DNA from: Mustelus asterias
Lineage: Eukaryota
Direction of reading: 5' to 3'
NCBI RefSeq assembly: GCF_964213995.1
Contig: NC_135819.1
Span: 46,996,001 to 47,060,000, forward strand
Length of the DNA stretch: 64,000 bases
Shown: one piece after another, positions 2,536 through 63,304 of the stretch
Layout: the number at the start of each line of letters is the position of its first letter
Position numbering within the stretch: the stretch's first letter is position 1
Program-made: the position numbers and the translations under genes
The notes under the pieces: generated by a model
The model's database searches: none
The model's input: only the letters and a program-made list of their open reading frames with translations
Told to the model about the DNA's origin: nothing

Positions 2536-3499
2536 AAGTTTCATAGGAGGTTTGCTTTCCACCAAACACCCAACACACAATTTGTTTTTTGTTAAGAAAA
2601 TGAATAAAGAAACACAAAGTTTTCTATGTAGTCAAAACTTTCCAGGAAAATCTTACCAGAACCATAAATGTTTTCAACCTCTTGATTAACCTTTCCACAA
2701 AGTTTGAATCTCCAGACTTATAGAGTCAATTGTTCAAAAGGTTAATTGCTAGTATTTCCTTTTTGGTTGGATTTTGTAGCCTTAAAGAAACGCATGTCTT
2801 TGCTTCAGCAGAAGAAAAATGCATTATGCTTTATACTGTACAATGTTTCTGTCCTCAGAAAAGTTTTACCATGAATTGCACTACAGGGAATATAGTCGGA
2901 GAGTAGTATTAAAAATGGTATATCAGCATAAATAGATATTGCTTTTAAGCAATATTACATTAGCGAAGCCTGTAACAAGTCTACAAGCGGATATAGGCGT
3001 CCTGTATGACATCAATTTATAAATTCTTGTATTTTCTCTAAGTACAGTTCCTTTTTTAAAATAAACACACACAAGCCATCTTAGCATGGCTGTAATGATG
3101 AGTTGCTTCAGGCCACTCAAGCAGTGACATGGGAGATTAAATATATAAAAGTGTTGTGCCTCATATCTGTATTACCCTTGATAACATCACACTTGTGTAC
3201 CAGAACAAAAAGCTCATGCCTTTAAATATAAAAAAATGTCCTGCAGCTAAAACAAAACATCATTGGGTGCCAAATCAAAGAAAGAGATAACGTGGAGCTT
3301 AAAGAAACTTGATTGGAGGTTGGTTTAAGGGAACACCTTAAAAAAAGATAAGTAGATCAAAGAGGAAGTGCCAAAGTTTGGGGGAAGGGGGATGCATAAG
3401 AATTCAGATGTGGAGATGCCGGCGTTGGACTGGGGTAAACACAGTTAAATGTCTAACAATACCAGGTTAAAGTCCAACAGGTTTATTAGGTAGCAAATG

Positions 3500-3536
3500 C
3501 CACTAGCTTTCAGAGCGCTGCCCCTTCATCAGGTGG
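3500..3536 (-). ncRNA. Minimal type I hammerhead ribozyme, second copy
   Basis: Reverse complement reads CCAC-CTGATGA-A-GGGGC-AGC-GCTCT-GAA-AGCT-A-GTGG. Confidence 0.7.
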
Positions 3537-4532
3537 AGTGGGAGATGTGCTCACAAACAGGGCATACAGAGACACAAACTCAATTTACAGAATAATGATT
3601 GGAATGCTGATCAAGCTAATCAATGCTAATACAGCTAATCAAGTCTTCAAGGTACAGACAATGTGAGTGGAGAGAGAGCATTAAGCACAGGTTAAAGAGA
3701 TGTGTATTGTCTCCAGACAGGGCAGCTGGTGAGATTTTGCAAGTCCAGGCAAGTTGTGGGGGTTACAGATAGTGTGACATGAACCCAGGATCCCGGTTGA
3801 GGCTGTTTTCATGTGTGCGGAACTTGGCTATCAGTTTCTGCTCAGCGACCCTGCGGTGTCGTGTGTCATGAAGGCCGCCTTGGAGAGCGCTTACCCGAAG
3901 ATCAGAGGCTGAATGCCCGTGACCGCTGAAGTGCTCCCCAACCGGGAAGAGAACAGTCTTGCCTGGTGATTGTCGAGCGGTGTAAACCATGCAGACGGTA
4001 CGACAACGGATGATACGCTGCAGGAAAGGATGTCCGGAGGCATGGTACATTGGGGAAACCATGCCGACGCTACGACAACGGATGAATGAACACCGCTCGA
4101 CAATCACCAGGCAAGACTGTTCTCTTCCTGTTGGGGAGCACTTCAGCGGTCACGGGCATTCAGCCTCTGATCTTCGGGTAAGCGTTCTCCAAGGCGGCCT
4201 TCATGACACACGACACCGCAGGGTCGCTGAGCAGAAACTGATAGCCAAGTTCCGCACACATGAGGACGGCTCAACCGGGATCCTGGGTTCATGTCACACT
4301 ATCTGTAACCCCCACAACTTGCCTGGACTTGCAAAATCTCACTAGCTGTCCTGTCTGGAGACAATACACATCTCTTTAAGCTGTGCTTAATGCTCTCTCC
4401 ACTCACATTGTCTGTACCTTTAAGACTTGATTAGCTGTATTAGCATTGATTAGCTTGATTAGCATTTCAATCATTATACTGTAAATTGAGTTTGTGTCTC
4501 TGTATGCCCTGTTTGTGAGCACATCTCCCACT

Positions 4533-4569
4533 CCACCTGACGAAGGGGCAGCGCTCCGAAAGCTAGTGG
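4533..4569 (+). ncRNA. Minimal type I hammerhead ribozyme (Penelope-associated)
   Basis: CCAC-CTGACGA-A-GGGGC-AGC-GCTCC-GAA-AGCT-A-GTGG: stem I CCAC/GTGG, intact core, 5-bp stem II and palindromic AGCT helix III. Confidence 0.75.
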
Positions 4570-4639
4570 CATTTGCTACTAAATAAACCTGTTGGACTTT
4601 AACCTGGTGTTGTTCGACTTCTTACTAAGAATTCAGAGG

Positions 4640-7016: not shown

Positions 7017-7108
7017 ATGACATTGCAGTGGGTTGCAGTTGCGTCTTTCTTGTATGCAGAAATAGGCTTCGTTTTGTTTCTATGTTTACCGTTCATCTCT
7101 CCTCGAAG
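7017..7108 (+). CDS. BCAP29: BCAP29 coding exon 1 (MTLQWVAVASFLYAEIGFVLFLCLPFISPR)
   Basis: Manual translation matches the BAP29/BAP31 N-terminus (human BAP29 MTLQWAAVATFLYAEIG). Acceptor ttggtag ends at 7001, so the exon starts at 7002 and a non-coding exon lies upstream. Donor AG|gtaggt at 7109. 92 coding nt. Confidence 0.95.
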
Positions 7109-7682: not shown

Positions 7683-8342
7683 GTGAAGGCAAATGGGATG
7701 TTGGCCTATATCGCGAGGGGGATAGAATATAAAAGCAGAGATGTCTTGATGCACCTGTACAGGGCATTGGTGAGGCCGCAGCTGGAATACTGTGTGCAGT
7801 ATTGGTCCCCTTATATGAGGAAGGATATATTGGCATTGGAGGGAGTGCAGAAAAGGTTCACCAGGTTGATACCGGAGATGAGGGGTTTGGATTATGAGGA
7901 GAGGCTGAGGAGATTGGGTTTGTACTCGTTGGAGTTTAGAAGGATGAGGGGGGATCTTATGGAGACTTATAAGATAATGCGGGGGCTGGATAGGGTGGAG
8001 GCGGAGAGATTCTTTCCACTTAGTAAGGAAGTTAAAACTAGAGGACACAGCCTCAAAATAAAGGGGGGTCGGTTTAAGACAGAGTTGAGGAGGAACTTCT
8101 TCTCCCAGAGGGTGGTGAATCTCTGGAATTCTCTGCCCACTGAGGTGGTGGAGGCTACCTCGCTGAATATGTTTAAAGCGCGGATGGATGGATTCCTGAT
8201 CGGTAAGGGAATTAAGGGTTATGGGGATCAGGCGGGTAAGTGGTACTGATCCACGTCAGATCAGCCATGATCTTATTGAATGGCGGGGCAGGCTCGAGGG
8301 GCTAGATGGCCTACTCCTGCTCCTATTTCTTATGTTCTTATG
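7683..8342 (+). mobile_element. CR1 LINE 3' fragment, young (open 188-aa ORF2 C-terminus)
   Basis: LYRALVRPQLEYCVQYWSP...RRNFFSQRVVNLWNSLP. 3' tail tcttatgttcttatg. Confidence 0.95.
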
Positions 8343-8727: not shown

Positions 8728-9095
8728 AGGGGAGGTGATGGCCTAGTGATATTATTGCGAGACTATTAATCCAGAAAGTCAGCTAATGTTTTGGGGACCA
8801 GGTTCAAATCCCACCACGGCAGATGGTGGAATTTGAATTCTATAAAAAATATCTGGAATTAAGAATCTACTGATGAAATCATTGTCAGAAAAACCCATCT
8901 GGTTCACTAACGTCCCTGAGGGAAGGAAATCTGCCATCCTTACCTGGTCTGGCCTACATGTGACTCCAGAGCCACAGTAATGTGGTTAACTCTCAACTGC
9001 CCTCTGAAATGACCTAGCAAGCCACTCAGTTCAAGGGCAATAAATGCTGAACAGCCAGCGATGCCCATGTCCCACGAATGAATAAAAGAAAAAAC
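8728..9095 (+). mobile_element. tRNA-derived SINE family 2
   Basis: tggcctagtg A box, ggttcaaatccc B box, core agggaaggaaatctgccatccttacctggtctggcctacatgtgactccaga, tail cccatgtcccacgaatgaataaaa. Inserted in an old CR1 3' fragment (8400-9300). Confidence 0.8.
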
Positions 9096-9429
9096 AAATC
9101 CAATAGGTAATTCAGGAGAAACCTCTTTACCCAGAAAATGGTTAAAATGTGGACTTTCTACACAGGGATTGGTTGAGATAAATAGCATGGGTGCCATTTT
9201 AAGGGCAAGCTAGATAACTGCATGATGGAGAAAGGAATAGATAAACATGCTGATATGGTGGAAGGAGATTCATTTCTGCTGAATGGCCTCTTTCAATGCT
9301 GTGTGTAATGTGTAACAATCTTAATACATTTTTTAAAATTGTCTCTCCGTTCTTCTGGTGGTGTTCTTACAATGCATAACTAGAGAGTTTACATTTATTT
9401 CAATATTGTGATTTGTATTTGTGTTTCAG

Positions 9430-9530
9430 ATGGTTGAAAATTTTCAATTTCCGTTTATGGGAAAAAATTGCATCGTACTGGAATAGAGCATTCCTCACAA
9501 TCATTATAGTTTTGGTTGTTTTGTTCTTCG
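9430..9530 (+). CDS. BCAP29: BCAP29 coding exon 2 (WLKIFNFRLWEKIASYWNRAFLTIIIVLVVLFF)
   Basis: tttcag| acceptor and G|gtaggt donor. 101 nt, in phase with exon 1. WxKIAxxWNxAFLTIII resembles BAP29 rather than BAP31. Confidence 0.95.
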
Positions 9531-10384
9531 GTAGGTGGGGCATTTCAGAGAAATACATTTTCAGAATTTTTTTAAAGCAATTATAAGGTCTGTGTAACCT
9601 GTACATATATTGAAGCAAAAATAGCTTACTGCTTTCTATTTATGATCTAATTTTCTTGCATTTTTATTGAACTCCAGTTTTTTAAAGGTTGTTTTCTATA
9701 TGCCTGCGTATTAGGATTTATCAGAACCATGTGCAAAATTTAAATTTGTTTTCCTATTCATTTTCATGATCTCAAAAGGTTTTTACTAACGGAACTTGGT
9801 TTTCTGATTTAGGACCTAGTCTCCATTGAGACAACAGCACTAAAATCAAAACTCTAGTCAACAATATTCAAACAGGACAAACCAGCAAACAAATAAAAAC
9901 AGAAAATGCTGGTAAAACTCTGCAGGTCCGGTTTATTTATAAGTGTCACAAGGATGCTTACATTAACACTGCACTGAAGTTACTGTGAAAATCTCTACGG
10001 AGAAGGAAAATGAATGAACTGTTGCAAGTCGAACTGCCTCTTTTCAGAATATGTACAACTAGGACTTACTTGCCTCAGTCAGGGGTCACATCTACACTTA
10101 GGGCTATAAGTTGAGTGATCCTACTTTAAACGTAAAAGATCTAGGTAATTGGTGTTGAAAATGGCTTAAAATTACTAACAACACATGGATATTGTTGGGG
10201 AATGGAAGTAGTTGGAAACAAGACTGTTGACAGCTGTAATACTCAGAACGAGGAATGTAAAAGTGACTTGTGAGTGTTATGCTTTTATTTATTTCATTGG
10301 GACAGAGATGAGAAATTTCTTCACTCAGAGGGTTGTGAAGTTTGTAACTCTATAACCCAGGAGGTTGTGAAGTTTGTAACTCTA

Positions 10385-10518
10385 TAGGTGGGGCATTTCA
10401 GAGAAATACATTTTCAGAATTTTTTTAAAGCAATTATAAGGTCTGTGTAACCTGTACATATATTGAAGCAAAAATAGCTTACTGCTTTCTATTTATGATC
10501 TAATTTTCTTGCATTTTT
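10385..10518 (+). repeat. Exact 134-bp duplicate of 9532-9665 (5' end of the intron after coding exon 2)
   Basis: Base-by-base comparison shows identity from taggtggggcatttcagag to ttttcttgcattttt. Confidence 0.95.
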
Positions 10519-10535
10519 TACATTCTTACATTCAT

Positions 10536-10878
10536 GGCGGCACGGTAGCATAGTGGTTAGCACTGCTGCTTCACAGCTCCTGGGTCCCAGGTTCGATTCC
10601 CGGCTCGGGTCACTGTCTGTGTGGAGTTTGCACATTCTCCTCGTGTCTGCGTGGGTTTCCTCCGGGTGCTCCGGTTTCCTCCCACAGTCCAAAGATGTGC
10701 AGGTTAGGTTGATTGGCCAGGTTAAAAATTGCCCCTTAGAGTCCTGGGATGTGTAGGTTAGAGGGATTAGCGGGTAAAATATGTGGGGGTAGGGCCTGGG
10801 TGGGATTGTGGTCGGTGCAGACTCGATGGGCCGAATGGCCTCCTTCTGCACTGTAGGGTTTCTATGAATTTCTATGAA
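10536..10878 (+). mobile_element. Full-length HE1-like V-SINE, CR1/HER1-type tail
   Basis: ggcggcacggtagcatagtggttagc, ggttcgattccc, V-domain, tail gatgggccgaatggcctccttctgcactgtaggg(tttctatgaa)2. Confidence 0.92.
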
Positions 10879-10919
10879 TAACCCAGGAGGTTGTGGATGC
10901 TCAGTCATTCAGTATATTA

Positions 10920-11290
10920 TGGGGGAGAAAATGGTGTAATGATGATGTCACTGAACTTGCAATTCAGAGACCCAGGCTAATGCTCTGGGGACATGGGTTC
11001 AAATCCCACCACGACAGCTGTGGAATTTAAACTCCATAATATGGAACTTAAAGCTAGTCTAGTCACATTAATGGTGACTCTGATAGCTATCATAAAAGCC
11101 CAACTGGTTCACTAATGCCCTTTAAGGAAAGAAATACTCTTTGGCCAACATGACGGCAGACCAACAGTAATGTGGTTGGCTCTTAATTGCCCTCTGAATT
11201 GGTACATCAAGCCACTCAGCTCCAAAACAATTAGGAATGCTGGCTTTACCAGTGATGCCCACCTCCCATAAAAGAATAATTTTTAAAAAT
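10920..11290 (+). mobile_element. SINE family 2, diverged copy
   Basis: Homologous to 8728-9095. Confidence 0.7.
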
Positions 11291-11588
11291 CAAGATTGAG
11301 ACAAATAGATTTTTAAATATTAAAGGGAATCAAAGAATATGGGTGGGGATCAGGTAAGAAAAAGGAGTTGACAAACCAGATCGGGTATAGTCTTAATGGC
11401 AGAATAGGCTTGAGGGACTGTATGGCCTCCTTATGCTCTGATTTTCTATGTTGTGTATTAAGAAAAGGAATTGAAATGCAAAAAAAAAAGAAAGCCTCTC
11501 CTCCAGCTGGTTTAATAAATGCCACAAAGTCTTAACAGTCCCCCTTGGAGACTTGAGAGCGGGAACTGCAGAGTTGTGATTTGAGGAG

Positions 11589-13583
11589 CATAAGACCATA
11601 AGACCATAAGACATAGGAGCGGAAGTAAGGCCATTCGGCCCATCGAGTCCACTCCACCATTCAATCATGGTTGATTTCAACTCCATTTACCCGCTCTCTC
11701 CCCATAGCCCTTAATTCCTCGAGAAATCAAGAATTTATCAATTTCTGTCTTGAAGACGCTCAACGTCTCGGCCTCCACAGCCCTCTGTGGCAATGAATTC
11801 CACAGACCCACCACTCTCTGGCTGAAGAAATTTCTCCTCATCTCTGTTCTAAAGTGACTCCCTTTTATTCTAAGGCTGTGCCCCCGCGTCCTAGTCTCCC
11901 CTGTTAATGGAAACAACTTCCCTACGTCCATCCTATCTAAGCCGTTCATTATCTTGTAAGTTTCTATCAGATCTCCCCTCAACCTCCTAAACTCCAATGA
12001 ATATAATCCCACGATCCTCAGACGTTCATCGTATGTCAGGCCTACCATTCCTGGGATCATCCGTGTGAATCTCCGCTGGACCCGCTCCAGTGCCAGTATG
12101 TCCTTCCTGAGGTGTGGGGCCCAAAATTGCTCACAGTACTCCAAATGGGGCCTAACCAGTGCTTTATAAAGCCTCAGAAGTACATCCCTGCTTTTGTATT
12201 CCAAGCCTCTTGAGATAAATGACAACATTACATTTGCTTTCTTAATTACGGACTCAACCTGCAAGTTTACCTTTAGAGAATCCTGGACTAGGACTCCCAA
12301 GTCCCTTTGCACTTTAGCATTATGAATTTTGTCACCGTTTAGAAAATAGTCCATGCCTCTATTCTTTTTTCCAAAGTGTACGACCTCGCACTTGCCCACG
12401 TTGAATTTCATCAGCCACTTCTTGGACCACTCTCCTAAACTGTCTAAATCTTTCTGCAGCCTCCCCACCTCCTCAATACTACCTGCCCCTCCACCTATCT
12501 TTGTATCATCGGCAAACTTGGCCAGAATGCTCCCAGTCCCGTCATCTAGATCGTTAATATATAAAGAGAACAGCTGTGGCCCCAACACTGAACCCTGCGG
12601 GACACCACTTGTCACCGGTTGCCATTCTGAGAAAGAACCTTTTATCCCAACTCTCTGCCTTCTGTCTGACAGCCAATCGTCAATCCATGTTAGTACCTTG
12701 CCTCGAATACCATGGGCCCTTATTTTACTCAGCAGTCTCCCGTGAGGCACCTTGTCAAAGGCCTTTTGGAAGTCAAGATAGATAACATCCATTGGCTCTC
12801 CTTGGTCTAACCTATTTGTTATCTCTTCAAAGAACTCTAACAGGTTTGTCAGGCACGACCTCCCCTTACTAAATCCATGCTGACTTGTCTTAATCCGACC
12901 CTGCACTTCCAAGAATTTAGAAATCTCATCCTTAACGATGGATTCTAGAATTTTGCCAACAACTGAGGTTAGGCTAATTGGCCTATAATTTTCCATCTTT
13001 TTTCTTGTTCCCTTCTTGAACAGTGGGGTTACAACAGCGATTTTCCAATCCTCTGGGACTTTCCCTGACTCCAGTGACTTTTGAAAGATCATAACTAACG
13101 CCTCCACTATTTCTTCAGCTATCTCCTTTAGAACTCTAGGATGTAGCCCATCTGGGCCCGGAGATTTATCAATTTTCAGACCTTTTAGTTTCTCTAGCAC
13201 TTTCTCCTTTGTGATGGCAACCATATTCAACTCTGCCCCCTGACTTTCCTGAATTGTTGGGATATTACTCATGTCTTCTACTGTGAAGACTGACGCAAAG
13301 TACTTATTAAGTTCCTCAGCTATTTCCTTGTCTCCCATCACTAGATTACCAGCGTCATTTTGGAGCGGCCCAATGTCTACTTTTGCCTCCCGTTTGTTTT
13401 TAATGTATTTAAAGAAACTTTTACTATCATTCCTAATGTTACTGGCTAGCCTACCTTCATATTTGATCCTCTCCTTCCTTATTTCTCTCTTTGTTATCCT
13501 CTGTTTGTTTTTATAGCCTTCCCAATCTTCTGACTTCCCACTACTCTTTGCCACATTATAGGCTCTCTCTTTTGCCTTGATGC
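11589..13583 (-). mobile_element. CR1 LINE, 5'-truncated, with uninterrupted 625-aa ORF2 (RT domain) at 11677..13554
   Basis: KSPGPDG, NYRPISLTS, QHGF, DFQKAFDKV, GVPQGSVLGP and FADD motifs. (cataagac)n tail at 11589-11612. Confidence 0.97.
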
Positions 13584-16500
13584 AAGCACAGGAGACAGAG
13601 CTGCTCCTCCATTAACAGATTCTGTGTCACACGAATGCTGCTTCAGTTCTTCCAATCACAGGTTCCTTTTCCCCCACTCTTGTAGCTCCTTCAGGGACAG
13701 AATCTATAATTGGAGGAGCAGCAAGGGTGAAAGGGAAGGAACCTGTGATTGGAGATCCAAGAGCAGTTATTCTGGCTGGTCCTGCAGCCTCCATGCAGGC
13801 GACTTGCTCCCAATTCACTTTTCATCCAGCTGCTGGACAATAAGTCCATTGGCCTAACATCCTCCAGGAGACTGAGGCAAAGAAACATAAAATGAAAAAA
13901 AACAATCTTGGCTAGTGATGGAGCAGGCCCACAGGAGCCACTACTTAGCCTCACACCAGCACAGACCTGGCTGCCATTCCTGCCAATGGGACTGGGGTTC
14001 TAGGTGACCTTTTTGCAATGACAATGCAAATGCAGGATATTGTTTTGAGGGGAGGTGAGAAATGGAGAAAATTAGCTCATAAAGGAGTAGCCAATTATTG
14101 GAAGTGTGTCCAGGTTCTTATAAGGAAGCCCCCGTGCTATAGCTTCAATTAGAGTGCAAGAGCCCTGTGGGCAGCTTGTCTGGAGAGACTCGAACAGCTC
14201 CATGAATTTCTCATCCTCGGCTCTTGGTGCAGCTGGGTTCTTGACAATTATTATTTCCATTTTGGGCAGTCAACATTAAATAATTTTACATTTCCAAGTC
14301 TTATGCCTTTCAGACAGTTTGGATACCAGTAATGTTTTTGGTTGTGAGGGAGGCTATGAGCTGGAGTATCAGGTCTTTTTAGACCTTGCTGTGTAATTTG
14401 GGTTTGCTGTTCTGATGATTGTGTTTAATGTTAACGTCTCTGAGAGCCAAGCTTTCCTACACATTGGACAAGTTACTATTTACAATTCAGCTGTTGCCAG
14501 TTCAGATTAATACCATGATTCTCAAAACATTGATGTTCGTCAGCTCCTGCAATCAGCTGTGAGATATTCCTAGTAGCTGACAGTATTATATAATTTGGTT
14601 TGTCCACGTATCTCTTTCTGTTCATTTGGATCTGCTTGCCATTCCAATTTGCTACATAAAATACTGTTTAGTTATCTTGAATCATCCCTGTAAATGACGT
14701 AGTCTGAGTCACATAACTGTGCTCTTATCAGAATTACTACAAGGCAGATTTTTTTGTGGATTTAAGGATAACTCTCCTGCTAATTTGGTCTGCTATTAAA
14801 TACAAATAAAAGATGGCAAAATATGTAAGAAAAGCATATCCAAACAACATTACACTTGCTTTTGATTTCTTTCCCACGTCCAAGGATAATTGGGTGTGAA
14901 CCCCAGATTTTAACCCAATTTATAAACTATGACCATCTCCATTTCACAAGCGATTCATATATTCCCAGCAGCATGTTTCATATAGTATTTGATCCTTCAT
15001 GTCTTTATTTTTATTGTTTACAATCTCTCCATACAGTTTATCAAAATGTTTAATTAACACAACATCAAATATTTTGTGAGCAAAAATGATCATTGTGTTC
15101 TGTGATAGCAATTTTTTGATACTCTGGTTACATTATTGATGCCTTTCCGGATATTTTTTAACGATCTAAATTATGCCATCTCTCAATTTTCAAGCAATGA
15201 TAAAGAAATTTCAGTTCAGTTATTTATATCAATAGTGTGCTATCAGTTGGAACTGTTCAGAACTAATTAACACAAGATAAAGGAGAAAAACTGCACATCT
15301 CTGAAAAGCACTTTTTGTCTACATTAAAGGTATTGATGCAATATTTGTTCTTGAGTGGCATGATGGATTTGAATTGCTCCATTTGTATCTAGGAACGGCT
15401 AAATGGCAAAACCAAACCAGTCAGTTGGAACACTAAAATTTTGATACTGAAAGATTTATGAATAAATTTTCAAGGTCATGTTCTGTTGTTAACAGACTCC
15501 ACCCTGTATTCGATGAATTAATTGCATTGAATGCTAAAATGCTGAGGTCACTTTGGTGATTTCGTACAAATATTTAGATCCACTGTCTTGAAGATAAACA
15601 GGTTAAAGGGGGGTAATGACTTGAGGGGATAGGTTGTTGGGAGTGCCTCCTTTGGCCACAGAGGACCCCAAAGGAGGTCCCTCCCCCCCCCCCCCCCCCC
15701 CCCCCACCTGCACAGCACTGCTCCACGCAATAAAAGCTGCCGTAATACCCACTTGGAATGGGTCTCCCCATGTGTGGGTAAGAGGCAGACTAAGACGCGT
15801 AAGGTGGCATTATTCGGCTATTTGAGGGCACAAGGGCCCGAAGGGTGGGCAGGATCCATGATGCCTCTACCCCCTGCAAAATGGGAAACAGGTTGTTGCA
15901 AAGACTGCACACTGCATTTTACGCATCTCTTGCCTAAAGGCACTCTGGCGAGGGGGGGGGGTCATAAAATCCAGCCCAGTGTTTCTATCCATTTGAAGTC
16001 TTAATAATTCCAGCCATTTGAAGTGGTCTGAAAGTATTGCATACGTACAAATTATATGAAGTGCTATAATTACATGGTGCCTTGTCACAAATTTTGTCTT
16101 TGGCCACTGATCCCTGGATAATGTCGATTTTTTTTTGTAGAGAGTCCAGAACAACAGGACATTATCTTAGAGCTAGGCTACAGTTGATGTCAGGAAGTGC
16201 TACTTCGTGCAAAGGGTAGTGGAAATCTGGAACTTTCTCCTCAAAAGCTATTGAGTAAGGTAAATTTAAAATTTGGGATCAGTAGACTTTTGTTAGGTAA
16301 GTGCTGTGGAACCGAGGCAGAAAGTTGGAGTTGAGATATAAATTAACCATTATCTGATCAAATGAAAGAACAGGCTTAAGGGGCTGAATGGTCGACTTTG
16401 TTCCAACAGAGGAGAGTATCAGTGCAGTCCTGAGATCTGGATTAGCTGATAGTTTCTACGCAAAACAATTTGGCCCTGATGCATAAACAAGCATGTTTAT

Positions 16501-17059
16501 GAATCTTTTTCAAGCAACGTGAACAGGAATTTTAGTTGAGACTGATAAACTGTATTTGAACTTTCAACTATTTGGTGGCATGAGATGGTTAAACTGATGC
16601 TCATTTTACGTTTTATTTCCCCCTTCTCATGCCAACAATTTCTGCCACTTGTTATATGGTTTCATGTCCCTCAACAAGGGAGCATTATTCATCTGTGAGT
16701 CTTGACACTGACTTTCAGTACTCCATAGTACCACATCAATATTTGTCTGATATTTACATATGCCAATGCTGCAGTGCCCTGGTTAACTCATGCTGTGGTT
16801 TCTTTAATAATAATTCTTCCTCTAACGGAACAGATGCATTATCGTGTCTACCTTCCCTGATTGGCCTGGGGACCCAGCAGCAGGAGGCCAGTGTTACAGC
16901 CCTGAGAAAGTGATTCAGCTAAGCCCAGACCTTCACCATTCAGGTTCCCAACCCGCAAATGGTCCTGTAATTCCGGCAAAGAATGGGTTGATAACATTCT
17001 GCACTTTTATTAAGTTTATAGCATTTGAATTAGCTTAGGCTATCACTAATGTTGGCTCA

Positions 17060-17620
17060 AGAGGGTTCAGCACTAGTTCATATGCTCTGGAGACAGGAAA
17101 GGATATTGGCTCAAACAACATCCTGGCTGTAGTGATGAAAACATCTCTGGAGCTAGCTGCCTCTCTGGCCAATCTGTTCCAGGACAACTTCAACACAGAC
17201 AAATTGAAGCATTGTCAATGCGTGTCTGTCCACAAGAAGCAGGACAAATCCAATTCTGCCAATTATCACCCAATCAGCATACTCTCATTCATCAGAATAA
17301 TGATGGAAGTTGTTACTGACGAGTAAATGCTGCTTCGTAGGGAGTGGGTACCCATCCCTAGGTACCCTATGAAAAGATGTTGAGCTGGCTTCTTGAACCG
17401 CTATCGAACATTGATGTAGGTGTACCTAAAATGTTGTTTAGGTCAGGAGTTCCAGGACTTTGACCCAGCAACAATGAGAGTACAGCAGTATGGTTCCAAG
17501 TCAGGATGGTGTCTGACTTGGGGAACTTGCAGGTGACATTACCCCTACGACCCTGTTGTTTGAAGTGGTACAGGTTGCAGGTTTGGAAAATCCTGGTCAA
17601 GGGCAACTCTGGATGGATTA
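17060..17620. mobile_element. Old non-LTR retroelement fragments (RT piece on +, 17060-17320; 3' piece on -, 17325-17620)
   Basis: ORF 17132..17326 has VHKKQDKSNSANYHPIS (NYRPIS-like). A related fragment lies at 21865-22028. Confidence 0.55.
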
Positions 17621-17755
17621 TATATGCGGGCATTTAACATTGAATATTTTTCCATTTTGCGTGTGCCAAATTCTTACTGAAGGCATGCAAATCAAGTATG
17701 ATATAGTGAAGCTCCCTCTACTTTTTTGCTACAACATGTCTTATTCCAAACTTTT

Positions 17756-18054
17756 GGCACATTGGTTAGCACTGCTGCCTCACAGCGTCAGGGACCCAGG
17801 TTCGATTCCCAGCTTGGATCACTGTCTGTGTGGAGTTTGCACATTCTCCCAGTGTCTGCGTGGGTTTTCTCCAGATGCTCCAGTTTCCTGCCACAGTCCA
17901 AAGATGTGCGGATTAAGTAGATTGGCCAGGCTAAATTGCCCCTTAGTGTCAGGGTAAATGCATAAGGTTATGGGGGTAGGGCCTGGGTGGGATTGTGGTC
18001 GGTGCAGACTCGATGGGCCAAATGGCCACCTCCTGCACTGTAGGGATTCTATGA
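17756..18054 (+). mobile_element. HE1-like V-SINE
   Basis: Homologous to 10536-10878. Confidence 0.9.
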
Positions 18055-19747
18055 AACTTTATTATCCCTAAATTTCCTGTCTTTCTCTCTGTTCAGTTGT
18101 AAGATTGCCGCCAGGCTTCCACTTTCCATTCCTGATACATGTCATCCAATGACCCTTTCTGAGAAATGTACATTTGTGGATATTGGGTGAAGACAGAATG
18201 GGTTCTCCATTTTTGAGTACCTTGAAAATCCTCAACATTGTGCATCAACATAAGTTAGCAGAGCCCAGCACCATGAACTGTACTCCAATTAGAGTTGACA
18301 ACTTCAACAGGAGAAAGAATAAAACATTTAAGAATTTTGATATTTAATGTTAATTAAAGATACAAATCACAGGGAACCTTACTCATTAAGCAGATAACTA
18401 CGTATATCTGAACAGTATGCGGGTTATCTCCAGTTTCAGAGTGAGTCTGCATTTATTATGCATCAATTGTGATCTTCATTTTGATACCAAATTCAAAGGT
18501 GGAGTTGCTGTTTTGGCCCAAAATATTAAGAGCAACAAATATTTTCGCTTGTTCTTGGACTTTGTTCACATGCATTCTGAAAGTGGCATCCTGTTCTGGC
18601 ACATTCTTTGTTGTTATGCCAACATTGATATTTAAGATTGTGCATTTTTCTTTTGTTTGTTTTTACTAATGTTTCAACATAAGATTCCATGCTGTCTTCA
18701 TGGGATAACAAAATTCCAAACTGTCTTTAATTACTGCTGTTTCTTGTGGTCAGTTTGCTTTCCTCACTGCTCACTACATTTGTCTGGAGTTTTCTTTTGT
18801 GTTTGAGTATGCTTATATACTAAACTTTGGTTTGACCGTCTGATTAGCCTGCAAAAAAAGGAAGCACTTTAACACATGTTCAAAATTATATTTTTAGTTT
18901 ATAAGGTAGAGCAAATCCATTTTCTAATAGAATGTACTAACATTGCATTGAAAACACATATATTGTATAATGCAAGTTGAATTGCATTGTGGCCACCTGA
19001 CTTTGGCAGACAAGTTCCATCCCTACCACACAATTCTTGTTTTTACTTGCCCAATCCAGTGGCTACTTGCATCACTTTTCTATTCACCAAGGTCAAAGCA
19101 GAGACCTTATTCATACTGGTTCGTTGCCTTTTTAAAAGACAAGTTCTGCAGAAATCTGAGCCACGACTGAGCAACTGGTAAAAACAGAGTATAACTCAGT
19201 TGGACAGATCAGATGAGATCCAGATCTGATTCTTGAGCTGCACAAAGTTTTCTGATGTTTGTTTTTAATACACCTGGGTTAGGGTAGTGAAATTCTACCA
19301 GGATTAACATCCTCCAGATTGTTATCCAATCACCCCAGCTAGAAAGTGGCTTGCTTACGGATGTTGGGTGAAGACGGTGTTGAACCCTGCAATGATGTCC
19401 CTAAGTTGAATAACCTGCAAACTCACCTTCTCAGTCCACAGTTAAAAGAACGCAAGGAATCATTAGATGGGCAATGTCCATGGAACCAAGAAAGTAGGAC
19501 ATGTAAAATTTATTGACAATTAAATAACGTATGGCATTGCATTATACAATTTTCTCTCATACACAAAATTTTCAGAAATGCAATCTTTAATTGTTTTAGT
19601 GGTCATAAAAATTCAGTTATTCTTTTTTAAATACTGCCTCAAAAAGACAACCATTCAACTATTATTTAAATCTTAAAATGGTTGCTATTATTCTCTGGAG
19701 CTCGTTCCGTATGATCCCCAAGAGATTTATATTAGGGCCATTACTAT

Positions 19748-21850
19748 TAGAACATAGAAAAGCTACAGCACAAACAGGCCCTTCAGCCAACAAGTTACGC
19801 CAAACATGTCCCTACCTACTAGGCTTACCTATAACCCTCTATCTTACTAACTTCCATTAACTTATCCAAAAGTCTCTTAAAAGACCCTATCGAATCCACC
19901 TCCATCACCACTACCGGCAGCCGATTCCACGCACCCACCAGCCTCTGAGTGAAAAACTTGCCTCTAACATCTCCTCTGTACCTACTCCCCAGCACCCTAA
20001 ATCTGTGACCTCTTGTGGCAACCATTACAGCCCTGGGTAAAAGCCTCTGAGAATCCACTCTATCAATACCTCTCAACATCTTATACACCTCTCATCCTTC
20101 GCCTCTCCAAGGAGAATAGACCTAGCTCTCTCAACCTATCCTCATAAGGCATACCACTTAATCCCGGCAACATCCTCGTAATTCTCCTCTGCACCCTTTC
20201 TATGGCTTCCACATCCTTTCTGTAATGAGGCGACCAGAACTGGGCACAGTACTCCAGGTGGGGTCTGACCAGGGTCCTATACAGCTGCAGCATTATCTCC
20301 CGATTTCTAAACTCAATTCCTCTATTGATGAAGGCCAGTATTCCATATACCTTCTTAACCACAGCCTCCACCTGCGATGCTGTTTTGAGCGTCCTATGAA
20401 CCCAGACCCCAAGATCCTTCTGATCTTCCACACTGCCAAGCGTCTTACCCTTAATATTATATTCTTTCATCCTATTCGACCTGCCAAATGAACCACCACA
20501 CACTTATCTGGGTTGAAGTCCATCTGCCACTTCTCCACCCAGTCTTGCATCTTATCTATGTCTTGTTGCAACTGCTGACATCCCTCTACACTATCCACAA
20601 CCCCACCAACCTTTGTGTCATCAGCAAACTTGCCAACCCATCCTTCCACTTCCTCATCCAGGTCATTTATAAAAATCACAAAGAGCAAGGGTCCCAGAAC
20701 AGATCCCTGGGGCACTCCACTGGTGACCGACCTCCATGCTGAAAAAGACCCATCTATAACCACTCTTTGCCTTCTGTGGGCAAGCCAGTTCTGAATCCAC
20801 AAAGCAATGTCCCCTTGTATCCCATGCCCCTTCACTTTCCCAATGAGCCTTGCATGGGGCACCTTATCAAACGCCTTGCTGAAATCCATATAAACTACAT
20901 CTACTGTCCTTCCCTCGTCTATGTGTCTAGTTACATGTTCAAAAAATTCAATTAGGCTCGTAAGGCATGACCTGCCTTGGACAAAGCCGTGCTGGCTATT
21001 TCTGATCATACTATTCCTCTCCAGATGTTCATAAATCCTGCCTCTCAGGATCTTCTCCATCAACTTACCAACCACTGAGATTAGACTCACCGGCCTATAA
21101 TTTCCCGGGCTATCTCCTCCCTTTCTTGAATAACGGAATCACATCCGCAATCCTCCGGAACCTCTCCCATCTCCATTGACGACGCAAAGATCATCACCAG
21201 AGGCTCAGCAATCTCTTCCCTCGCCTCCCACAGTAACCTGGGGTACATCCCATCCGGTCCCGGCGACTTATCTAACTTGATGCTTTTCAAAAGCTCCAAC
21301 ACATCCTCTTTCCTAATGTCCACATGCTCAATCTTCTCAGTCCACTGCAAGTCTGCACTGCAACTACCAAGATCCTTTTCCACTGTGAATACTGAAGCAA
21401 GTATTCATCGAGTACCTCTGCCATTTCTACTGGTTCTATACAGACTTTCCCACCATCACATTTGATAGGTCCTACTCCTTCACATCTTATCCTCTTGCTT
21501 TTAACATACTTGTAGAATGCCTTGGGGTTTTCCTTTATCCTGTCTGCCAAAGCTTTCTCATGACCCCTTCCAGCTCTTCTAATTTCCCTCTTAAGTTCCT
21601 TCCTACTAGTCATATACTCTTCTAGATTTCTAACATTACCTGAACCTTTCGTAGGCTTTTCTTTTCTTCTTGACTAAATTCGTGACAGCTTTCGTGCACC
21701 ATAGTTCCTGTGACCTACCATAACTCCCCAGCCTCATTGGAACGTTGCTGTGTAGAGCTCCAGACAAATTTTCCTTGAAAATCTGCCACATTTCTTCTGT
21801 ACATGTCCCTGAGAAAACCTCCTTCCAATTTATGCCTCTAATATTCTTGA
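19748..21850 (-). mobile_element. CR1 LINE, 5'-truncated, frameshifted
   Basis: ORFs 19825-21890 are consecutive RT pieces (DFSKAFDKV, FADD). tagaacatagaa tail. Confidence 0.95.
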
Positions 21851-22779
21851 TATATACTTGATAAATGCTGTGGCTACCAGAGTAGGTCAACGGTTAGGAA
21901 TCCTGTGGCAAGTAACTCGCCTCCTGACCCTCCAAAGCCTGTCCAGTCCACCATCCACAAGTCAAGGAGTGTAACGGAATACTCTCCACTTGCCTGGCTG
22001 AGTGCAGCTCCAACAACACTCAAGAAGTGGAAAAGTTAAAGATCATCTGCTTCGGATCTGAGACAGATTGGAATATTTTTTTAGTGGTGGAAGACTCCGA
22101 GGAGGGATAAAAGGGTTTTGGTGTCCATGTACACACATAGCTAAAAGCTGGTACATAAATACAAAACTAATCAAAACAGCTAATAGAATATTGGCCAGCA
22201 TCTCAAGTGACTCGTCAAAGCAGCTGCCTATGATTAGCATCATAAAGGAACAGAAAGATGGTTAGAAGTTGTAGGAAATCATTAGAATTAAGAAAAGTGA
22301 TAGAGGAAGTTGGTTTCCTCTCCTTACATGTGGAATTCTTCTATAAAGTGCATTGAATTGAGCTTTTACGTATTTTATGCTTTAAAACATGTATTCCCTC
22401 GTGAAAAAACATCAATTAATCATTGGATATTCTCTTGTAATTCAGGAAATAATTTTAAAACTGAGAAATTGAAAAGAAAATCCTCTTTTTCAAGAGCCTA
22501 CCAAAATTTTTATTGGTTTACCAAGTAAGTCAGGAAACTAAACTAGTCATGGAAGGAATTCAGGATTCAGAACTTTCAAATGTTTTAGTGGCATCACAGT
22601 TCATTATGTTTTCTTTTTGTTCAACCACTGATGTTCCTTACAACATTTTCTTTTTTTAATTCAGGAATGGATTTTGTGAGACTAGCCAAATATTTGTGTA
22701 CTTTGAAGTTTGAAAATTTAAGATTTACCATTTTGATATGATCAGTTGCAAATTTCTAATAAACTGCCTCTGCTTGTAG

Positions 22780-22930
22780 ATGCCGTTAGAGAAGTGAGGA
22801 AATATTCACTGAACGAAGGGATTGGAAAAAATGAAAAGCTGCTTCCAAATATGTATGATCATCTCAACATGAAGCTTTTTAGAGCACAAAGGAATCTTTA
22901 CATATCTGGATTTTCACTGTTCCTCTGGCT
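22780..22930 (+). CDS. BCAP29: BCAP29 coding exon 3 (DAVREVRKYS...MKLFRAQRNLYISGFSLFLWL)
   Basis: ORF 22746..22934 carries the Bap31-family motif KLFRAQRNLYISGF. ttgtag| acceptor, |gtaagt donor. 151 nt. Confidence 0.97.
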
Positions 22931-23039
22931 GTAAGTATAAATGGTAAATAAAATGTTGTACTTTTAACTTCAACAAAAAGATAACTGGACCATTATCAAA
23001 CAATTTGAGAGTAGGGTGAAGGGCAGAAGAAATTTAGAT

Positions 23040-37039: not shown

Positions 37040-38604
37040 ATTTAAATTACAAAAGGAAGGAAATCAAGTTCAATAAATAAATCAAGATGGCTCTTCAGAA
37101 GTGAGTTGAATAAGTATTTTGCATCAGTCTTCACTACTGAGGATACAAGTAACATCCCGACAAAGCATAATAAGTCAGGAAATGGAAGGGAGGGGGAACT
37201 CAGGAAAATTATTATCACCAGAGAAGTGGTATTGAGTAAGTTGTTGGGGATACAGAGTGACAAATGCCTAGGTCTTGATGGACTTCATCCTAGAGTCTTA
37301 AAAGATGTGGCTAGTAAGATAGTTGATGCATTGTTCATAATTTTCCAAAGCTCCCTAGAATCGGGGAAGGTCTCGTTTGATTAGATTAGATTAGGAAATG
37401 TAATTCCATTATTCAGAAAGGAAGGGAGACAAAGCAGGAAACTACAGGCCAGTTACCTTAACATCTGTCATAAGGAAAATGTTAGAAGCTATTATTAAAG
37501 AAGCTAAGTTCAAGATAATCAGGCAGAGTCAACATGGTTTTTTGAAAGGGAAATCATGTTTAACCAATTTATTGAAGTTCTTTGAGGAAATAATCTGTGC
37601 TTTGGATAAAGGGGAACTGGTAGATGTACTGTACTTGGATTCCCAGAAAACAATTGATAAAGTGTCACATCAAAAGCTATTGCTGAAAGTAAAAGCTCAT
37701 GGTATAGAGGGTAACAGATTGGCATGGATAGATGATTGTCTGGCTTACAGGAGGCAGAAAGTGAGAATTTTCTTTTTCAAATTGGCAAGATGTAATGAGT
37801 GGTGTGCCACAGGGAGCAGTGCTGGGTCCTCAACTGTTTACAATTTATATAAATTACTTGGATGAAGGGATGGCTGGGATGGTTGCCAAATTTGCTGATG
37901 ACACAAAGATAGAAAACCAAGTTGTGAAGAAGACATGACATAGGTTAAATAAGTGGGCAAAGACCTGACAAATGGAGTACAATGTGGGGAAAATGAAAGT
38001 GTCCACTTTGGCAGGAATGGTGAGAGATTGCAGAGCTTTTGAGATGCAGAGGGATCTGGGCGTCTTAGTGCATGAATCACAAAAGGCTAGAATGCAGGTT
38101 CAGCGAGTAATTAGAAAGCTAATAGAATATCATTTATTGTGAGGGGAATTGAATATAAAAGTAGGAAGATTTTGCCTCAGTTACACAGAGCACTAGTGAG
38201 ACCACATGTGAAGTACTGTGTACAGTATTGGTCACCTTATTTAAGGAAAGATATGAAAGTATTGGAAGCAGTTCAGAGGTTTATTACCTGGAATGGGTGA
38301 GTTGTCTTGTAAGGAAAGGTTGAACAGGCTAGACTAGCATCTGCTCGAATTTAGCAAAGAGATGACTTGATTGAAACAAGATCCAGAAAGGTCTTGGCAG
38401 GGTGAATGTGGAGAGGATGTTTTGTCTTGTGGGAGAATCGAGAACTCGGGATCACTGTTTAACAATAAGGGGTTGCTCAGTTAAAACTGAGGTAGGGAGA
38501 ATTTTTTCCTGAGGGTCATGAGTCTTTGGAAATCTCTTCCTGAAAAGTTGATGGAAGCAGTCTTTGAATATTTTGAAGGCAGAGGTGGATAGATTCTTGG
38601 TAAG
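37040..38604 (+). mobile_element. Degraded CR1 LINE, interrupted by the 38605-40732 element; its 3' end resumes at ~40736-40850
   Basis: NKYFASVFT, LHPRVLK, QHGFLKGKSCLTNLL. The tail agatcagccatgatc...gaggctgaatggtcc follows the nested element. Confidence 0.88.
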
Positions 38605-40732
38605 CATAGAACATAGGACATTACAGTGCAGTACAGGCCCTTCAGCCCTCGATGTTGCACCGACCAGTGAAACCAATCTAAAGCCCATCTAACCTACACT
38701 ATTCCAGTATCATCCATATGTTTAGCCAATGACCATTTAAATGCCCTTAATGTTGGCGAGTCCACTACTGCTGCAGGCAGGGCATTCCACGTCCTTACTA
38801 CTCTCCGAGTGAAGAACCTACCTCTGACATCTGTCCTATGTCTATCACCCCTCAATTTAAAGCTATGTCCCCTCGTGCTAGCTATCACCATCCGAGGAAA
38901 AAGGCTCTCACTATCCACCCTGTCTAATCCTCTGATCATCTTGTATGCCTCTATTAAGTCACCTCTTAACCACCTTCTCTCTAACGAAAACAACCTCAAG
39001 TCCCTCAGCCTTTCCTCCTAAGACCTTCCCACCATGCCAGGTAACATCCTGGTAAATCTCCTCTGCACCCTTTCCAATGCTTCCACATCCTTCCTATAAT
39101 GCGGCGACCAGAACTGTACGCAATACTCCAAGTGCGGCCGCACCAGAGTTTTGTACAGCTGCAACATGACCTCCACCAATAAAAGCTAACACTCCGTACG
39201 CCTTCTTAACAACCCTATCAACTTGGGTGCCAACTTTCAGGGATCTATGCACATGCACATCAAGATCTCTCTGTTCATCCACACTACCAAGTATCTTACC
39301 ATTAGCCCAGTACTCTGTAATCCTGTTACTCCTTCCAAAGTGAATCACCTCACACTTTTCCGCATTGAACTCCATTTGCCACCTCTCAGCCCAGCGCTGC
39401 AGCTTATCTGTGTCCCTCTGTAACCTGCAACAACCTTCCGCACTGTCCACAACTCCACCGACTTTAGTGTCATCCGCAAATTTACTAACCCATCCTTCTA
39501 CGCCCTCATCCAGGTCATTTATAAAAATGACAAACAGCAGTGGCCCCAAAACAGATCCTTGCAGTACACCACTAGTAACTGAATTCCAGGATGAACATTT
39601 CCCATCAACCACCACCCTCTGTCTTCTTACAGCTAGCCAATTCCTGATCCAAACCGCTAAATCACCCTCAATCCCATGCCTCCGTATCTTCTGCAATAGC
39701 TTACCGTGGGGAACCTTATCAAATGCTTTACTGAAATCCATATACACCACATCAACTGCTTTACCCTCAACTACCGCTTTGGTCACCTTCTCAAAGAACT
39801 CAATAAGGTTTGTGAGGCACGACCTACCCTTCACAAAACCGTGTTGACTATCCCTAATCAAATTATTCCTTTCTCGATGATTATAAATCCTATCTCTTAT
39901 AATCCTTTCCAAAACTTTGCCCACAACAGAAGTAAGGCTCACTGGTCTATAATTACCAGGGTTGTCTCTACTCCCCTTCTTGAACAAGGGGACACCATTT
40001 GCTATCCTCCAGTCTTCTGGCACTATTCCTGTAGACAATGACAACATAAAGATCAAAGCCAAAGGCTCTGCAATCTCCTCCCTCGCCTCCCAGAGAATCC
40101 TAGGATAAATCCCATTCAGCCCAGGGGACTTATCTATTTTCACACTTTCCAGAATTGCTAACACCTCCTCCTTATTAACCTCAATCCCGTCTAGTCCAAT
40201 GGCCTGTATCTCAGTATTCTCCTCGACAACATTGTCTTTTTCCTGCGTGAATACTGATGAAAAATATTCATTTAGCGCCTCTCCTTTCTCTTCAGGCTCC
40301 ACGCACAACTTCCCACTACTGTCCTTGACTGGCCCTAATCTTACCCGAGTCATTCTTTTATTCCTGACATACCTATAGAAAGCTTTAGGGTTTTCCTTGA
40401 TCCTACCTGCCAAAGACTTCTCATGTCCCCTCCTGGCTCTTCTTAACTCTCTCTTTAGGTCCTTCCTGACTAACTTGTAACTCTCAAGCGCCCTAACTGA
40501 GCCTTCACGTCTCATCTTTACACAAGTCTCCTTCTTCCTCTTCACAAGAGATTCAACGTCTTTTGTAAACCACGGTTCCCTCACTCAACCACTTTCTCCC
40601 TGCCTGACAGGTACATACTTATCAAGGACACGCAGTAGCTGTTCCTTGAACAAGCTCCACATTTCAATTGTGCCCATCCCCTGCAGTTTCCTTCCCCAAC
40701 CTATGCATCCTAAATCTCGCCTAATCGCATCA
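38605..40732 (-). mobile_element. CR1 LINE nested in an older CR1 (496-aa ORF2 piece, then a frameshifting deletion)
   Basis: ORFs 39094..40584 and 38694..38999. catagaacatag tail. Confidence 0.96.
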
Positions 40733-62906: not shown

Positions 62907-63304
62907 AAGTTTATTTATTAGTGTCACAAGTAGGCTTACATTAACACTGCAAAGAAGTTACTGTGAAAATCTCCTAGTCGCCACACTCCGGTGCCTGTTC
63001 GGGTATACTAAGGGAGAATTTAGCATGGCCAACGCATCTAACCACCACATCTTTAAGATGGTGGGAGGAAACCGGAGCACCCGAAGGAAACTCACGCAGG
63101 CACGGGGAGAATACAGACTCTGCACAAGGTTGAGCGAGACTGGACAATCTCACCCGAGGTCAATAGACCTTCCCATTGTCCGCCCCTCGCCCATTCCAAT
63201 TCCATGGCAGTCAGGGTGGTAGAATTCCAATAAGTGACACAAGGCGGGAATCGAACCCAGGTCCCTGGCACTATGAGGCAGCAGTGCTAACCACTGTGCT
63301 GCCT
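62907..63304 (-). mobile_element. V-SINE tail type B with a partial MITE inserted at ~63140-63230
   Basis: Homologous to 508-810. The insert gaggtcaatagacct...ccatgg...gtagaattcc matches 41408-41512 and 52226-52352. Confidence 0.82.

What the first reader, a model, noticed from the sequence alone, without database searches (positions are those of the whole stretch)
10352..10895. Chimeric SINE insertion that captured the 5' end of its own host intron
Seen: an 18-bp direct repeat ATAACCCAGGAGGTTGTG (10352-10369, 10878-10895) brackets, in order, a short copy of adjacent flank (aagtttgtaactctata), an exact 134-nt copy of 9532-9665, a ~17-nt filler and a full-length V-SINE, all in gene sense. The copied segment begins at position +2 of this intron (donor G at 9531). 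Inference: during target-primed reverse transcription the CR1 RT jumped from SINE RNA to local BCAP29 intron RNA and stopped at the 2'-5' branched G+1 of the lariat. That would be a fossil of germline lariat retro-copying at the site of transcription. Perfect identity implies a very recent event.
Basis: partly seen in the sequence, partly recalled or inferred. Interest (0 to 1): 0.72.

Follow-up and report, generated by a model that had tools for sequence, protein, structure and literature searches.

The report
SINE insertion with locally copied extras
A short jumping element landed in a gene's intron and, while its front end was being patched in, picked up copies of three nearby bits of sequence; one copy starts almost exactly at the beginning of the intron, which is more likely a repair coincidence than the proposed trace of a spliced-out intron RNA, though that idea is not excluded.

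Summary
The anatomy is real. An 18-nt direct repeat brackets a 508-nt insert in a 13.2-kb intron of a Bap31/Bap29-family gene. The insert holds a 17-nt flank copy, an exact 134-nt copy of 9532-9665, a 17-nt filler and a full-length tRNA-headed SINE. The lariat reading is weaker than stated. A 2-nt microhomology makes the copy's start +2, +3 or +4, and G+1 is missing. The filler matches the antisense strand 90 nt upstream (10/10 nt, P about 0.7-2%), which intron RNA cannot supply, so not every piece is in gene sense. The flank copy ends at the inferred nick. An RNase H-less retroviral RT reads through 2'-5' links, and the long LINE ORF here shows no RNase H. Best reading (0.58): one TPRT insertion whose 5' junction was patched by repeated priming on local DNA, a known class of 5' extra nucleotides. 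The nearness to the donor is still unlikely by chance (about 0.1-2%), so an excised-intron RNA template stays open (about 0.2; the 2'-5' branch stop itself about 0.1). 'Very recent' is unproven: zero mismatches allow up to 1.8% divergence.

The parts
9430..9530 (+). Coding exon of a Bap31/Bap29-family gene (second coding exon; 101 nt, AG before, GT after)
   Evidence: Pfam PF05529 E 1e-3; splices in frame with 7017-7108 and 22780-22931, which hit PF05529 at 6.5e-9 and 4.1e-15
9531..22779 (+). Host intron, 13,249 nt with the insertion; donor G at 9531
9532..9665 (+). Source of the 134-nt copy (intron +2..+135; 29% GC; ends in a 5-T run)
10253..10262 (-). Candidate antisense template of the filler (10-nt exact match, 90 nt upstream of the target)
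10323..10354 (+). Upstream imperfect repeat (12 of 15 nt like the end of the duplicated target, last 7 exact) and template of the flank copy; ends at the inferred first-strand nick
10301..10901 (+). Old LINE fragment into which the SINE inserted; the reconstructed empty site is colinear with the copy at 8078-8156 (72% over 79 nt across the junction)
10352..10369 (+). Left target-site duplication (16-18 nt)
10370..10386 (+). Copy of flank 10338-10354, entered through a 7-nt microhomology
10385..10518 (+). Exact 134-nt copy of the intron 5' end; 2-nt microhomology on the left, 3-nt T-run overlap on the right
10519..10535 (+). 17-nt filler: two tandem 8-nt units (with the T-run, 10516-10525 and 10526-10533) matching the minus strand at 10253-10262, plus 2 unassigned nt
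10536..10877 (+). Full-length tRNA-headed SINE (A-box-like 10546-10556 and B-box-like 10590-10600 by recalled consensus), 3' stem-loop and 10-nt tail repeats; HE1/V-SINE-like by recall
   Evidence: related copies in the window are 77-83% identical
10878..10895 (+). Right target-site duplication
38605..38666 (-). 3' end of an RT-encoding LINE copy whose 3' UTR resembles the SINE tail (76% over 68 nt): candidate partner family, not part of the insertion

Best explanation
A LINE-mobilised SINE inserted by target-primed reverse transcription into an old LINE fragment, 820 nt into the intron, and left a 16-18-nt duplication. Shown: the duplication, the 2-nt 3' microhomology, and the tail shared with LINE 3' ends. 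Before the 5' end was sealed, the free 3' end(s) primed several short rounds of synthesis on nearby genomic DNA through tiny microhomologies. This gave three pieces: a slip of the target overhang 32 nt back, ending at the nick (17 nt); a copy of 9532-9665 (134 nt); and a twice-copied 8-10-nt piece from the opposite strand 90 nt upstream. Shown: the sequence matches and the microhomologies. Inferred: that DNA was the template, the order of steps, and the enzyme (the LINE RT by template jumping or a host end-joining polymerase). On this reading the start near the donor is chance. The insert probably has no function: it does not recreate the true donor, only the weaker GT at +5 already present in the source.
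For: Antisense 10-nt match of the filler 90 nt from the target. It is one of three 10-nt matches in the 64 kb and the only one within 1.5 kb. Sliding-window null: 8 of 1176 (100 nt radius) to 20 of 1170 (250 nt). Shuffle null: 48 to 94 of 3000. The flank copy ends at 10352-10354 and the nick lies after 10351-10353; a nick means something on DNA and nothing on RNA. Three of the five internal joints carry microhomology (7, 2 and 3 nt). G+1 is missing. Precedent: about 40% of genomic ZfL2-2 copies carry 5' extra nucleotides (PMC2666801). A large share of ZfL2-2 extras is copied from flanking sequence (PMC4245944; PMC4760211). [quoted passage not shown]
Against: A start within +1..+4 of a donor has a uniform chance of only 0.1-0.8%, or about 1.8% for either end near any splice site within 1 kb, and this model must call it chance. 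The 134-nt template lies 690-820 nt from the nick, far beyond the other two (0-100 nt), and is entered with only 2-3 nt of microhomology. The filler match weakens as the radius grows (7-14% at 1 kb). Its sliding windows overlap. The filler could instead be untemplated slippage or a leader from the source element. The joint between the two filler units and the joint to the SINE show no microhomology that I could identify. Local precursor-mRNA co-insertion has been reported once for L1 (PMC10191854).
Confidence: 0.58

Rival explanations
1. Excised intron RNA as template. After the SINE RNA, the RT jumped to the U-run at +135 of the spliced-out host intron near its locus and copied to, or nearly to, its 5' end. 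The cDNA end then annealed by TA at the nick, losing G+1. The RNA could be a lariat (stop at the 2'-5' link, about 0.1) or a debranched or trimmed linear intron (about 0.1).
For: Start at +2..+4 and gene-sense orientation, with chance 0.1-2%. My rough likelihood ratio for this boundary is some tens to about a hundred in favour of an RNA end; this is an estimate, not a tool result. A 3-5-nt A/U pairing is available at +135. RT switching to other RNAs is documented for L1 and R2 (PMC13174262; PMC11331408; PMC10191854).
Against: G+1 is not copied. In the in vitro study the marker for the stop at the 2'-5' link was the cDNA of the 2'-arm itself, which I read as copying up to G+1, and the RNase H-less RT read through efficiently (PMC5399748 section 21; a retroviral RT, not a LINE RT). 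The 644-aa LINE ORF in this window, running to its stop codon, gave only RVT_1 and no RNase H at E<=0.01. The piece made just before it in cDNA order is antisense. Entry at +135 of a 13-kb intron, next to the target, is itself a coincidence under this model. I found no described case in the searches (listings only), so the prior is low.
Confidence: 0.21
2. Transcription-shaped template without a lariat. Either nascent unspliced pre-mRNA was copied and the switch near the donor is chance, or an R-loop beginning at the G cluster at 9530-9540 exposed the sense DNA strand, and copying stopped at the loop's left edge.
For: Sense orientation; a precedent for co-insertion of local precursor mRNA (PMC10191854); the G run at the intron start.
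Against: Nascent RNA gives no reason to stop at +2..+4. The segment is only 29% GC, which by recalled R-loop rules is poor for a stable loop. The antisense filler stays unexplained.
Confidence: 0.13
3. Two or more separate events: a local duplication and a SINE insertion at different times.
For: It cannot be excluded without population data.
Against: One duplication brackets all the pieces. The SINE alone has no repeat longer than 2 nt between its 25-nt flanks. The empty site is colinear with a paralogous LINE fragment.
Confidence: 0.05
4. Assembly or library artefact.
For: Perfect identity of a 134-nt repeat 853 nt apart; no reads were available.
Against: The coherent TSD, 3' tail microhomology, nick-bounded slip and antisense filler are not what a collapsed or expanded repeat would give (inference). 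The window has no N.
Confidence: 0.03

Closest known systems
5' extra nucleotides (EX) of zebrafish ZfL2/CR1-type LINE inserts, 'annealing' pathway (PMC4245944, PMC4760211, PMC2666801; the primary analysis, Kajikawa et al. 2012 Gene, not read)
   Same: Extras between the TSD and the element's 5' end, copied from flanking sequence through short annealing; 3' microhomology.
   Different: Here the element is a SINE in a germline genome, not a reporter insert. The TSD is 16-18 nt, against about 5 bp for ZfL2-1 and 10-15 bp for Nimb-2. The extras total 166 nt from three templates, one 690-820 nt away. I saw no length or distance distribution for EX, so I cannot say how unusual that is.
L1 insertions with sequence templated from nearby genomic DNA (PMC11702581) and 5' foldback inversions (PMC10191854)
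   Same: TPRT hallmarks plus locally templated pieces at the 5' side; 52-220 bp of extra DNA synthesis is reported.
   Different: Human L1, somatic or cultured cells. The Fig. S10 details (distances, orientation) were in a supplement I could not open.
L1 insertion co-inserted with local precursor mRNA (PMC10191854, Extended Data Fig. 9g; one case in an adenoma clone)
   Same: A local transcript proposed as second template by RT strand switching.
   Different: The passage I read mentions no splice-donor boundary or lariat. Here the RNA origin is unproven because the copy crosses no splice junction.
U6/L1 and mRNA/L1 5' chimeras (PMC13174262); R2 'snap-back' and 'extra template' junctions (PMC11331408)
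   Same: A second sequence fused 5' of the element inside one TSD.
   Different: Those partners are abundant RNAs or exons that END at donors. Here the piece is intronic, local, and BEGINS just after a donor. 'lariat' occurs 0 times in the main text of PMC13174262.
HE1 V-SINE of sharks and rays with partner LINE HER1 (listed in PMC3747384 and PMC4824008)
   Same: tRNA-like head, central domain resembling the V domain (recalled), and a 3' end shared with a LINE 3' UTR in the same window.

Membership tests
TPRT insertion of a LINE-mobilised SINE | Target-site duplication around the whole insert | tested here: met
   16-18 nt exact; empty site colinear with a paralogue
TPRT insertion of a LINE-mobilised SINE | 3' end shared with a LINE 3' UTR, ending in short repeats | tested here: met
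   76% over 68 nt to 38605-38666(-) and 22 of 22 nt to 11628-11649(-), both downstream of RVT_1 ORFs
TPRT insertion of a LINE-mobilised SINE | tRNA-derived head with A and B boxes | tested here: inconclusive
   Boxes recognised by recalled consensus and conserved among window copies; ARAGORN and Rfam gave no tRNA hit
V-SINE / HE1 | About 80-bp central V domain matching the published consensus | not testable with these tools
   No repeat library; supplements searched gave 0 hits (one file was not searchable); the resemblance is recalled
CR1-clade partner LINE | RT phylogeny placing the partner in CR1 | not tested
   Only Pfam RVT_1 was shown; the clade name is recalled
Flank-templated 5' extra nucleotides | Non-element sequence between the 5' TSD and the element | tested here: met
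   10370-10535, 166 nt
Flank-templated 5' extra nucleotides | Extras match sequence near the target | tested here: met
   17 nt and 134 nt exact; filler 10-nt antisense match, P about 0.7-2%
Flank-templated 5' extra nucleotides | Template was DNA, not RNA | tested here: inconclusive
   Favoured for the flank copy and the filler; undecidable for the 134-nt piece, which crosses no splice junction
Lariat-templated chimera (proposed) | Copy reaches the first intron nucleotide G+1 | tested here: not met
   10384 is A and 9531 is G; the start is +2..+4
Lariat-templated chimera (proposed) | Read-through into branch-point sequence, or another RNA-only mark | tested here: not met
   The 17 nt 5' of the copy are an exact copy of 10338-10354, so no branch-site sequence from the intron's 3' end is needed; no splice junction in the copy
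Lariat-templated chimera (proposed) | Captured piece in gene sense and close to the donor | tested here: met
   Sense; within 4 nt; chance 0.1-2%
Lariat-templated chimera (proposed) | Genome-wide enrichment of such boundaries at donors | not testable with these tools
   No eukaryotic genome collection is on hand; the two other copies with a 3' tail in the window show no TSD or comparable extras

The most novel reading that the evidence does not exclude
During germline SINE insertion, the partner LINE's reverse transcriptase jumped onto the freshly excised intron RNA of the very gene it was inserting into and copied it to its 5' end (lariat branch or debranched end). The result would be a genomic fossil of a spliceosomal intron product, and a route by which intron 5' ends are duplicated in cis.
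Probability: 0.2. Interest if true: 0.72.

Novelty: new member of a known kind. Interest (0 to 1): 0.34.

Why it matters
On the likely reading it is a clean natural example, in a probably cartilaginous-fish germline, of a known by-product of retrotransposon 5' joining. Its three templates and nick-bounded slip can be read base by base, which is useful but not surprising. If the excised-intron reading held, LINE RTs would be shown to use spliceosomal intron RNA at its own locus as a template in vivo. Genomes would then hold a countable record of where excised introns linger, which bears on intron-derived duplications and RNA-templated repair. The finding's main value is that it defines a cheap genome-wide test: count where locally copied 5' extras begin relative to splice donors.

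Tried and rejected
ARAGORN on the whole window found 0 genes. Rfam on 9000-12000 gave 3 weak matches, all far below the gathering scores, none within the insert. The intron 5' segment folds less well than shuffles (z +2.2); its two ends can form a G-U-rich helix, which I rejected as an explanation of the boundaries. The V-domain could not be checked: 0 hits in the supplements of two papers, one file not searchable. The window offered no sister cases: of six other copies with the SINE head or body (77-83% identical), I tested for TSDs the two that have a 3' tail; one gave a single 7-nt match overlapping the element ends, the other none. A SINE-only TSD was rejected (best 2 nt). The exon coordinates in the first lines were wrong (my offset) and were replaced; the null tests do not depend on them. 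The self-comparison filter hid the long inverted repeat later found. The genome contigs, phage, plasmid and E. coli collections were not searched because they hold no vertebrate genomes, so orthologous empty alleles stayed unchecked. No structure or complex prediction was run, as no protein is in question. Supplements not seen that may bear on the claims: Fig. S10 of PMC11702581 and the junction tables of PMC4245944 and PMC2666801. Kajikawa 2012 (Gene) and Ogiwara 1999/2002 were seen only as reference-list entries.

Full report
OBSERVATION. The structure described is in the sequence. The 18-nt direct repeat at 10352-10369 and 10878-10895 is exact and cannot be extended. Between the copies lie 508 nt: a copy of flank 10338-10354 (10370-10386), an exact 134-nt copy of 9532-9665 (10385-10518), a 17-nt filler (10519-10535) and a SINE (10536-10877). 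Only 2 exact direct repeats of 40 nt or more exist in the 64 kb; the other is 49 nt shared by two SINE copies. Removing the insert and one repeat gives a site colinear with an old LINE fragment at 8078-8156 (72% over 79 nt, across the junction), which independently supports the TSD.

HOST GENE. The exon 9430-9530 has AG before and GT after it and matches Pfam Bap31 weakly (E 1e-3, 19.4 bits, cut-off 22.7). Exons 7017-7108 and 22780-22931 match above the cut-off, and the three splice in frame. The donor G is 9531 and the intron is 13,249 nt long. That the gene is BCAP29 rather than BCAP31, and that the host is a shark or ray, is my recall and was not tested.

THE SINE. Six other copies with its head or body occur in the window, at 77-83% identity. 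Their 5' ends place the head at about 10536, so the element is full length and the filler lies outside it. Its 3' end matches the 3' UTRs of RT-encoding LINE copies in the window: 76% over 68 nt at 38605-38666(-) and 22 of 22 nt at 11628-11649(-). The tail unit of 10 nt runs 2 nt into the right repeat, so the TSD is 16-18 nt and the first-strand nick falls after 10351, 10352 or 10353. HE1 with partner HER1 is the listed V-SINE of sharks and rays (PMC3747384, table passage; PMC4824008, passages). I could not compare sequences, so 'V-SINE' and 'CR1' remain recalled labels.

THE JUNCTIONS. (1) TSD to flank copy: the last 15 nt of the target match the sequence 32 nt upstream at 12 positions, the last 7 exactly. 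This is a slip between natural imperfect repeats of the old LINE fragment. The copy then ends at 10352-10354, which coincides with the inferred nick. The chance of that is roughly 4-5 in 32, so the evidence is modest, but only DNA of the broken target gives it a reason. (2) Flank copy to intron copy: TA belongs to both templates, so the switch is at +2, +3 or +4. G+1 is absent in all readings. There are 76 TA sites in the kilobase upstream, so the microhomology does not single out this site. (3) Intron copy to filler: the 6-T run is 5 T of the source overlapping 4 T of a second template. That template reads on for 10 nt on the minus strand at 10253-10262, and the next 8 nt (10526-10533) repeat the same site. 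Three 10-nt matches to the filler exist in the whole window, and this is the only one within 1.5 kb. Sliding controls reach 10 nt in 8 of 1176 windows at radius 100, 20 of 1170 at 250 and 80 of 1140 at 1000. Shuffled fillers do so in 48, 94 and 422 of 3000. The windows overlap and the radius was chosen after the fact, so this is suggestive (about 1-2%), not proof. If real, this piece cannot come from the gene's RNA.

THE DONOR COINCIDENCE. It is the finding's real point and it survives. A uniform start falls in +1..+4 with probability 0.1-0.2% (both strands, both sides, 0.5-1 kb) or 0.4-0.8% (sense, upstream only). Either end near any splice site has about 1.8% (simple arithmetic, uniform null). 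It is one case, picked from a genome scan because it looked striking. My rough likelihood ratio favours an RNA end by some tens to about a hundred. The verdict therefore turns on the prior rate of excised-intron templates against DNA templates, which I take to be of the order of 1% or less because I found none described. Searches listed 4, 13, 3, 1 and 4 papers. I saw only their titles and abstract openings, apart from PMC13174262 and PMC5399748, and none described lariat capture at a SINE or LINE 5' junction. The library lacks most subscription journals.

THE BRANCH STOP. In PMC5399748 (abstract and sections 18, 21, 23 read), the stop at a 2'-5' link was marked against the cDNA of the 2'-arm itself. 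I read that as copying up to the G+1 equivalent. The same section concludes that absence of RNase H lets the RT read through 2'-5' links efficiently; this is a retroviral enzyme. The 644-aa LINE ORF at 11680-13611(-), which runs to its stop, gave RVT_1 only, in line with my recall that this LINE group lacks RNase H. A lariat also offers no free 3' end at +135, and end-to-end jumping is the recalled preference of R2-type RTs. A debranched or trimmed intron would give the same boundary with no branch. So the exact mechanism proposed is the less likely half of a minority reading.

PRECEDENT. About 40% of genomic ZfL2-2 copies carry 5' extras (PMC2666801, passages). A large share of ZfL2-2 extras is copied from flanking sequence by annealing (PMC4245944, parts 2-3 of 5 read; PMC4760211, passages). 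Of full-length Alu insertions, 12.4% have 5' extras (PMC2912911, passages). L1 insertions with nearby genomic DNA templates numbered three in one long-read study (PMC11702581, passages). One L1 insertion co-inserted local precursor mRNA, and four had 5' foldbacks (PMC10191854, passages). R2 junction classes include snap-back and extra-template (PMC11331408, passages). L1 chimeras with RNAs are catalogued without mention of lariats (PMC13174262, passages). PMC5499810 and PMC6887750 (passages) added nothing decisive. Both DNA-templated extras and local RNA capture are thus known. Only the excised-intron boundary would be new.

MECHANISM. Shown: one TSD around all pieces, the templates of two pieces, the probable template of the third, and the microhomologies. 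Inferred: a nick after 10351-10353, TPRT of the full SINE, then repeated priming before ligation. Two directions fit. The target's 3' overhang could have slipped back, run off at the nick, copied 134 nt, snapped back on its own strand for the filler, and joined the cDNA; then +2 is a start and no stop is needed. Or the cDNA end could have done the copying leftwards and finally annealed to the overhang. The sequence cannot tell these apart, nor DNA from RNA for the 134-nt piece. I give DNA-templated patching 0.58, excised intron RNA 0.21 (branch stop about 0.1), nascent RNA or an R-loop edge 0.13, separate events 0.05 and artefact 0.03.

AGE. Zero mismatches in 167 paired positions bound the divergence at 1.8% (95%). 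At 7e-10 per base per generation, measured in the epaulette shark (PMC10587355, passages), that allows up to about 13 million generations, and the median wait for a first difference is about 3 million (my arithmetic; the host is inferred). The event is young compared with the other copies in the window, but 'very recent' is not shown.

CONSEQUENCE AND VERDICT. The copy lacks the true donor and carries only the weaker GT at +5, so no effect on splicing is expected (inference). This is a new, legible member of a known kind, with an unexplained 0.1-2% coincidence that one genome-wide count could settle. Interest 0.34; novel reading probability 0.2, interest 0.72 if true.

Noticed in passing
window 3443-3983 and 4090-4626: Long inverted repeat: arms of about 540 nt, 95% complementary, with a spacer of about 105 nt that itself holds a 30-nt direct repeat (3984-4013 / 4056-4085). 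It looks like a foldback duplication or a palindromic non-autonomous element.
   Followed up: partly
window 11680-13611 (-): Open 644-codon RT-encoding LINE ORF with its 3' UTR and tail at 11590-11680; its stem-loop is identical to the SINE's over 22 nt.
   Followed up: partly
window 38570-40584 (-): LINE copy with RVT_1 whose 3' UTR is the closest LINE match to the SINE tail in the window; candidate partner family.
   Followed up: partly
window 10784-10832 and 17971-18019: An exact 49-nt match in the 3' part between this SINE and the copy at 17757, although the two are about 83% identical overall: a conserved LINE-derived tail, or a mosaic subfamily.
   Followed up: no
window 63008-63303 (-): A SINE copy interrupted by about 100 nt of unrelated sequence in the middle of its body.
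   Followed up: no
window 8801-9041 and 10996-11231: Two copies, about 80% identical and 2.2 kb apart, of another interspersed repeat flanking the exon and the insertion.
   Followed up: no
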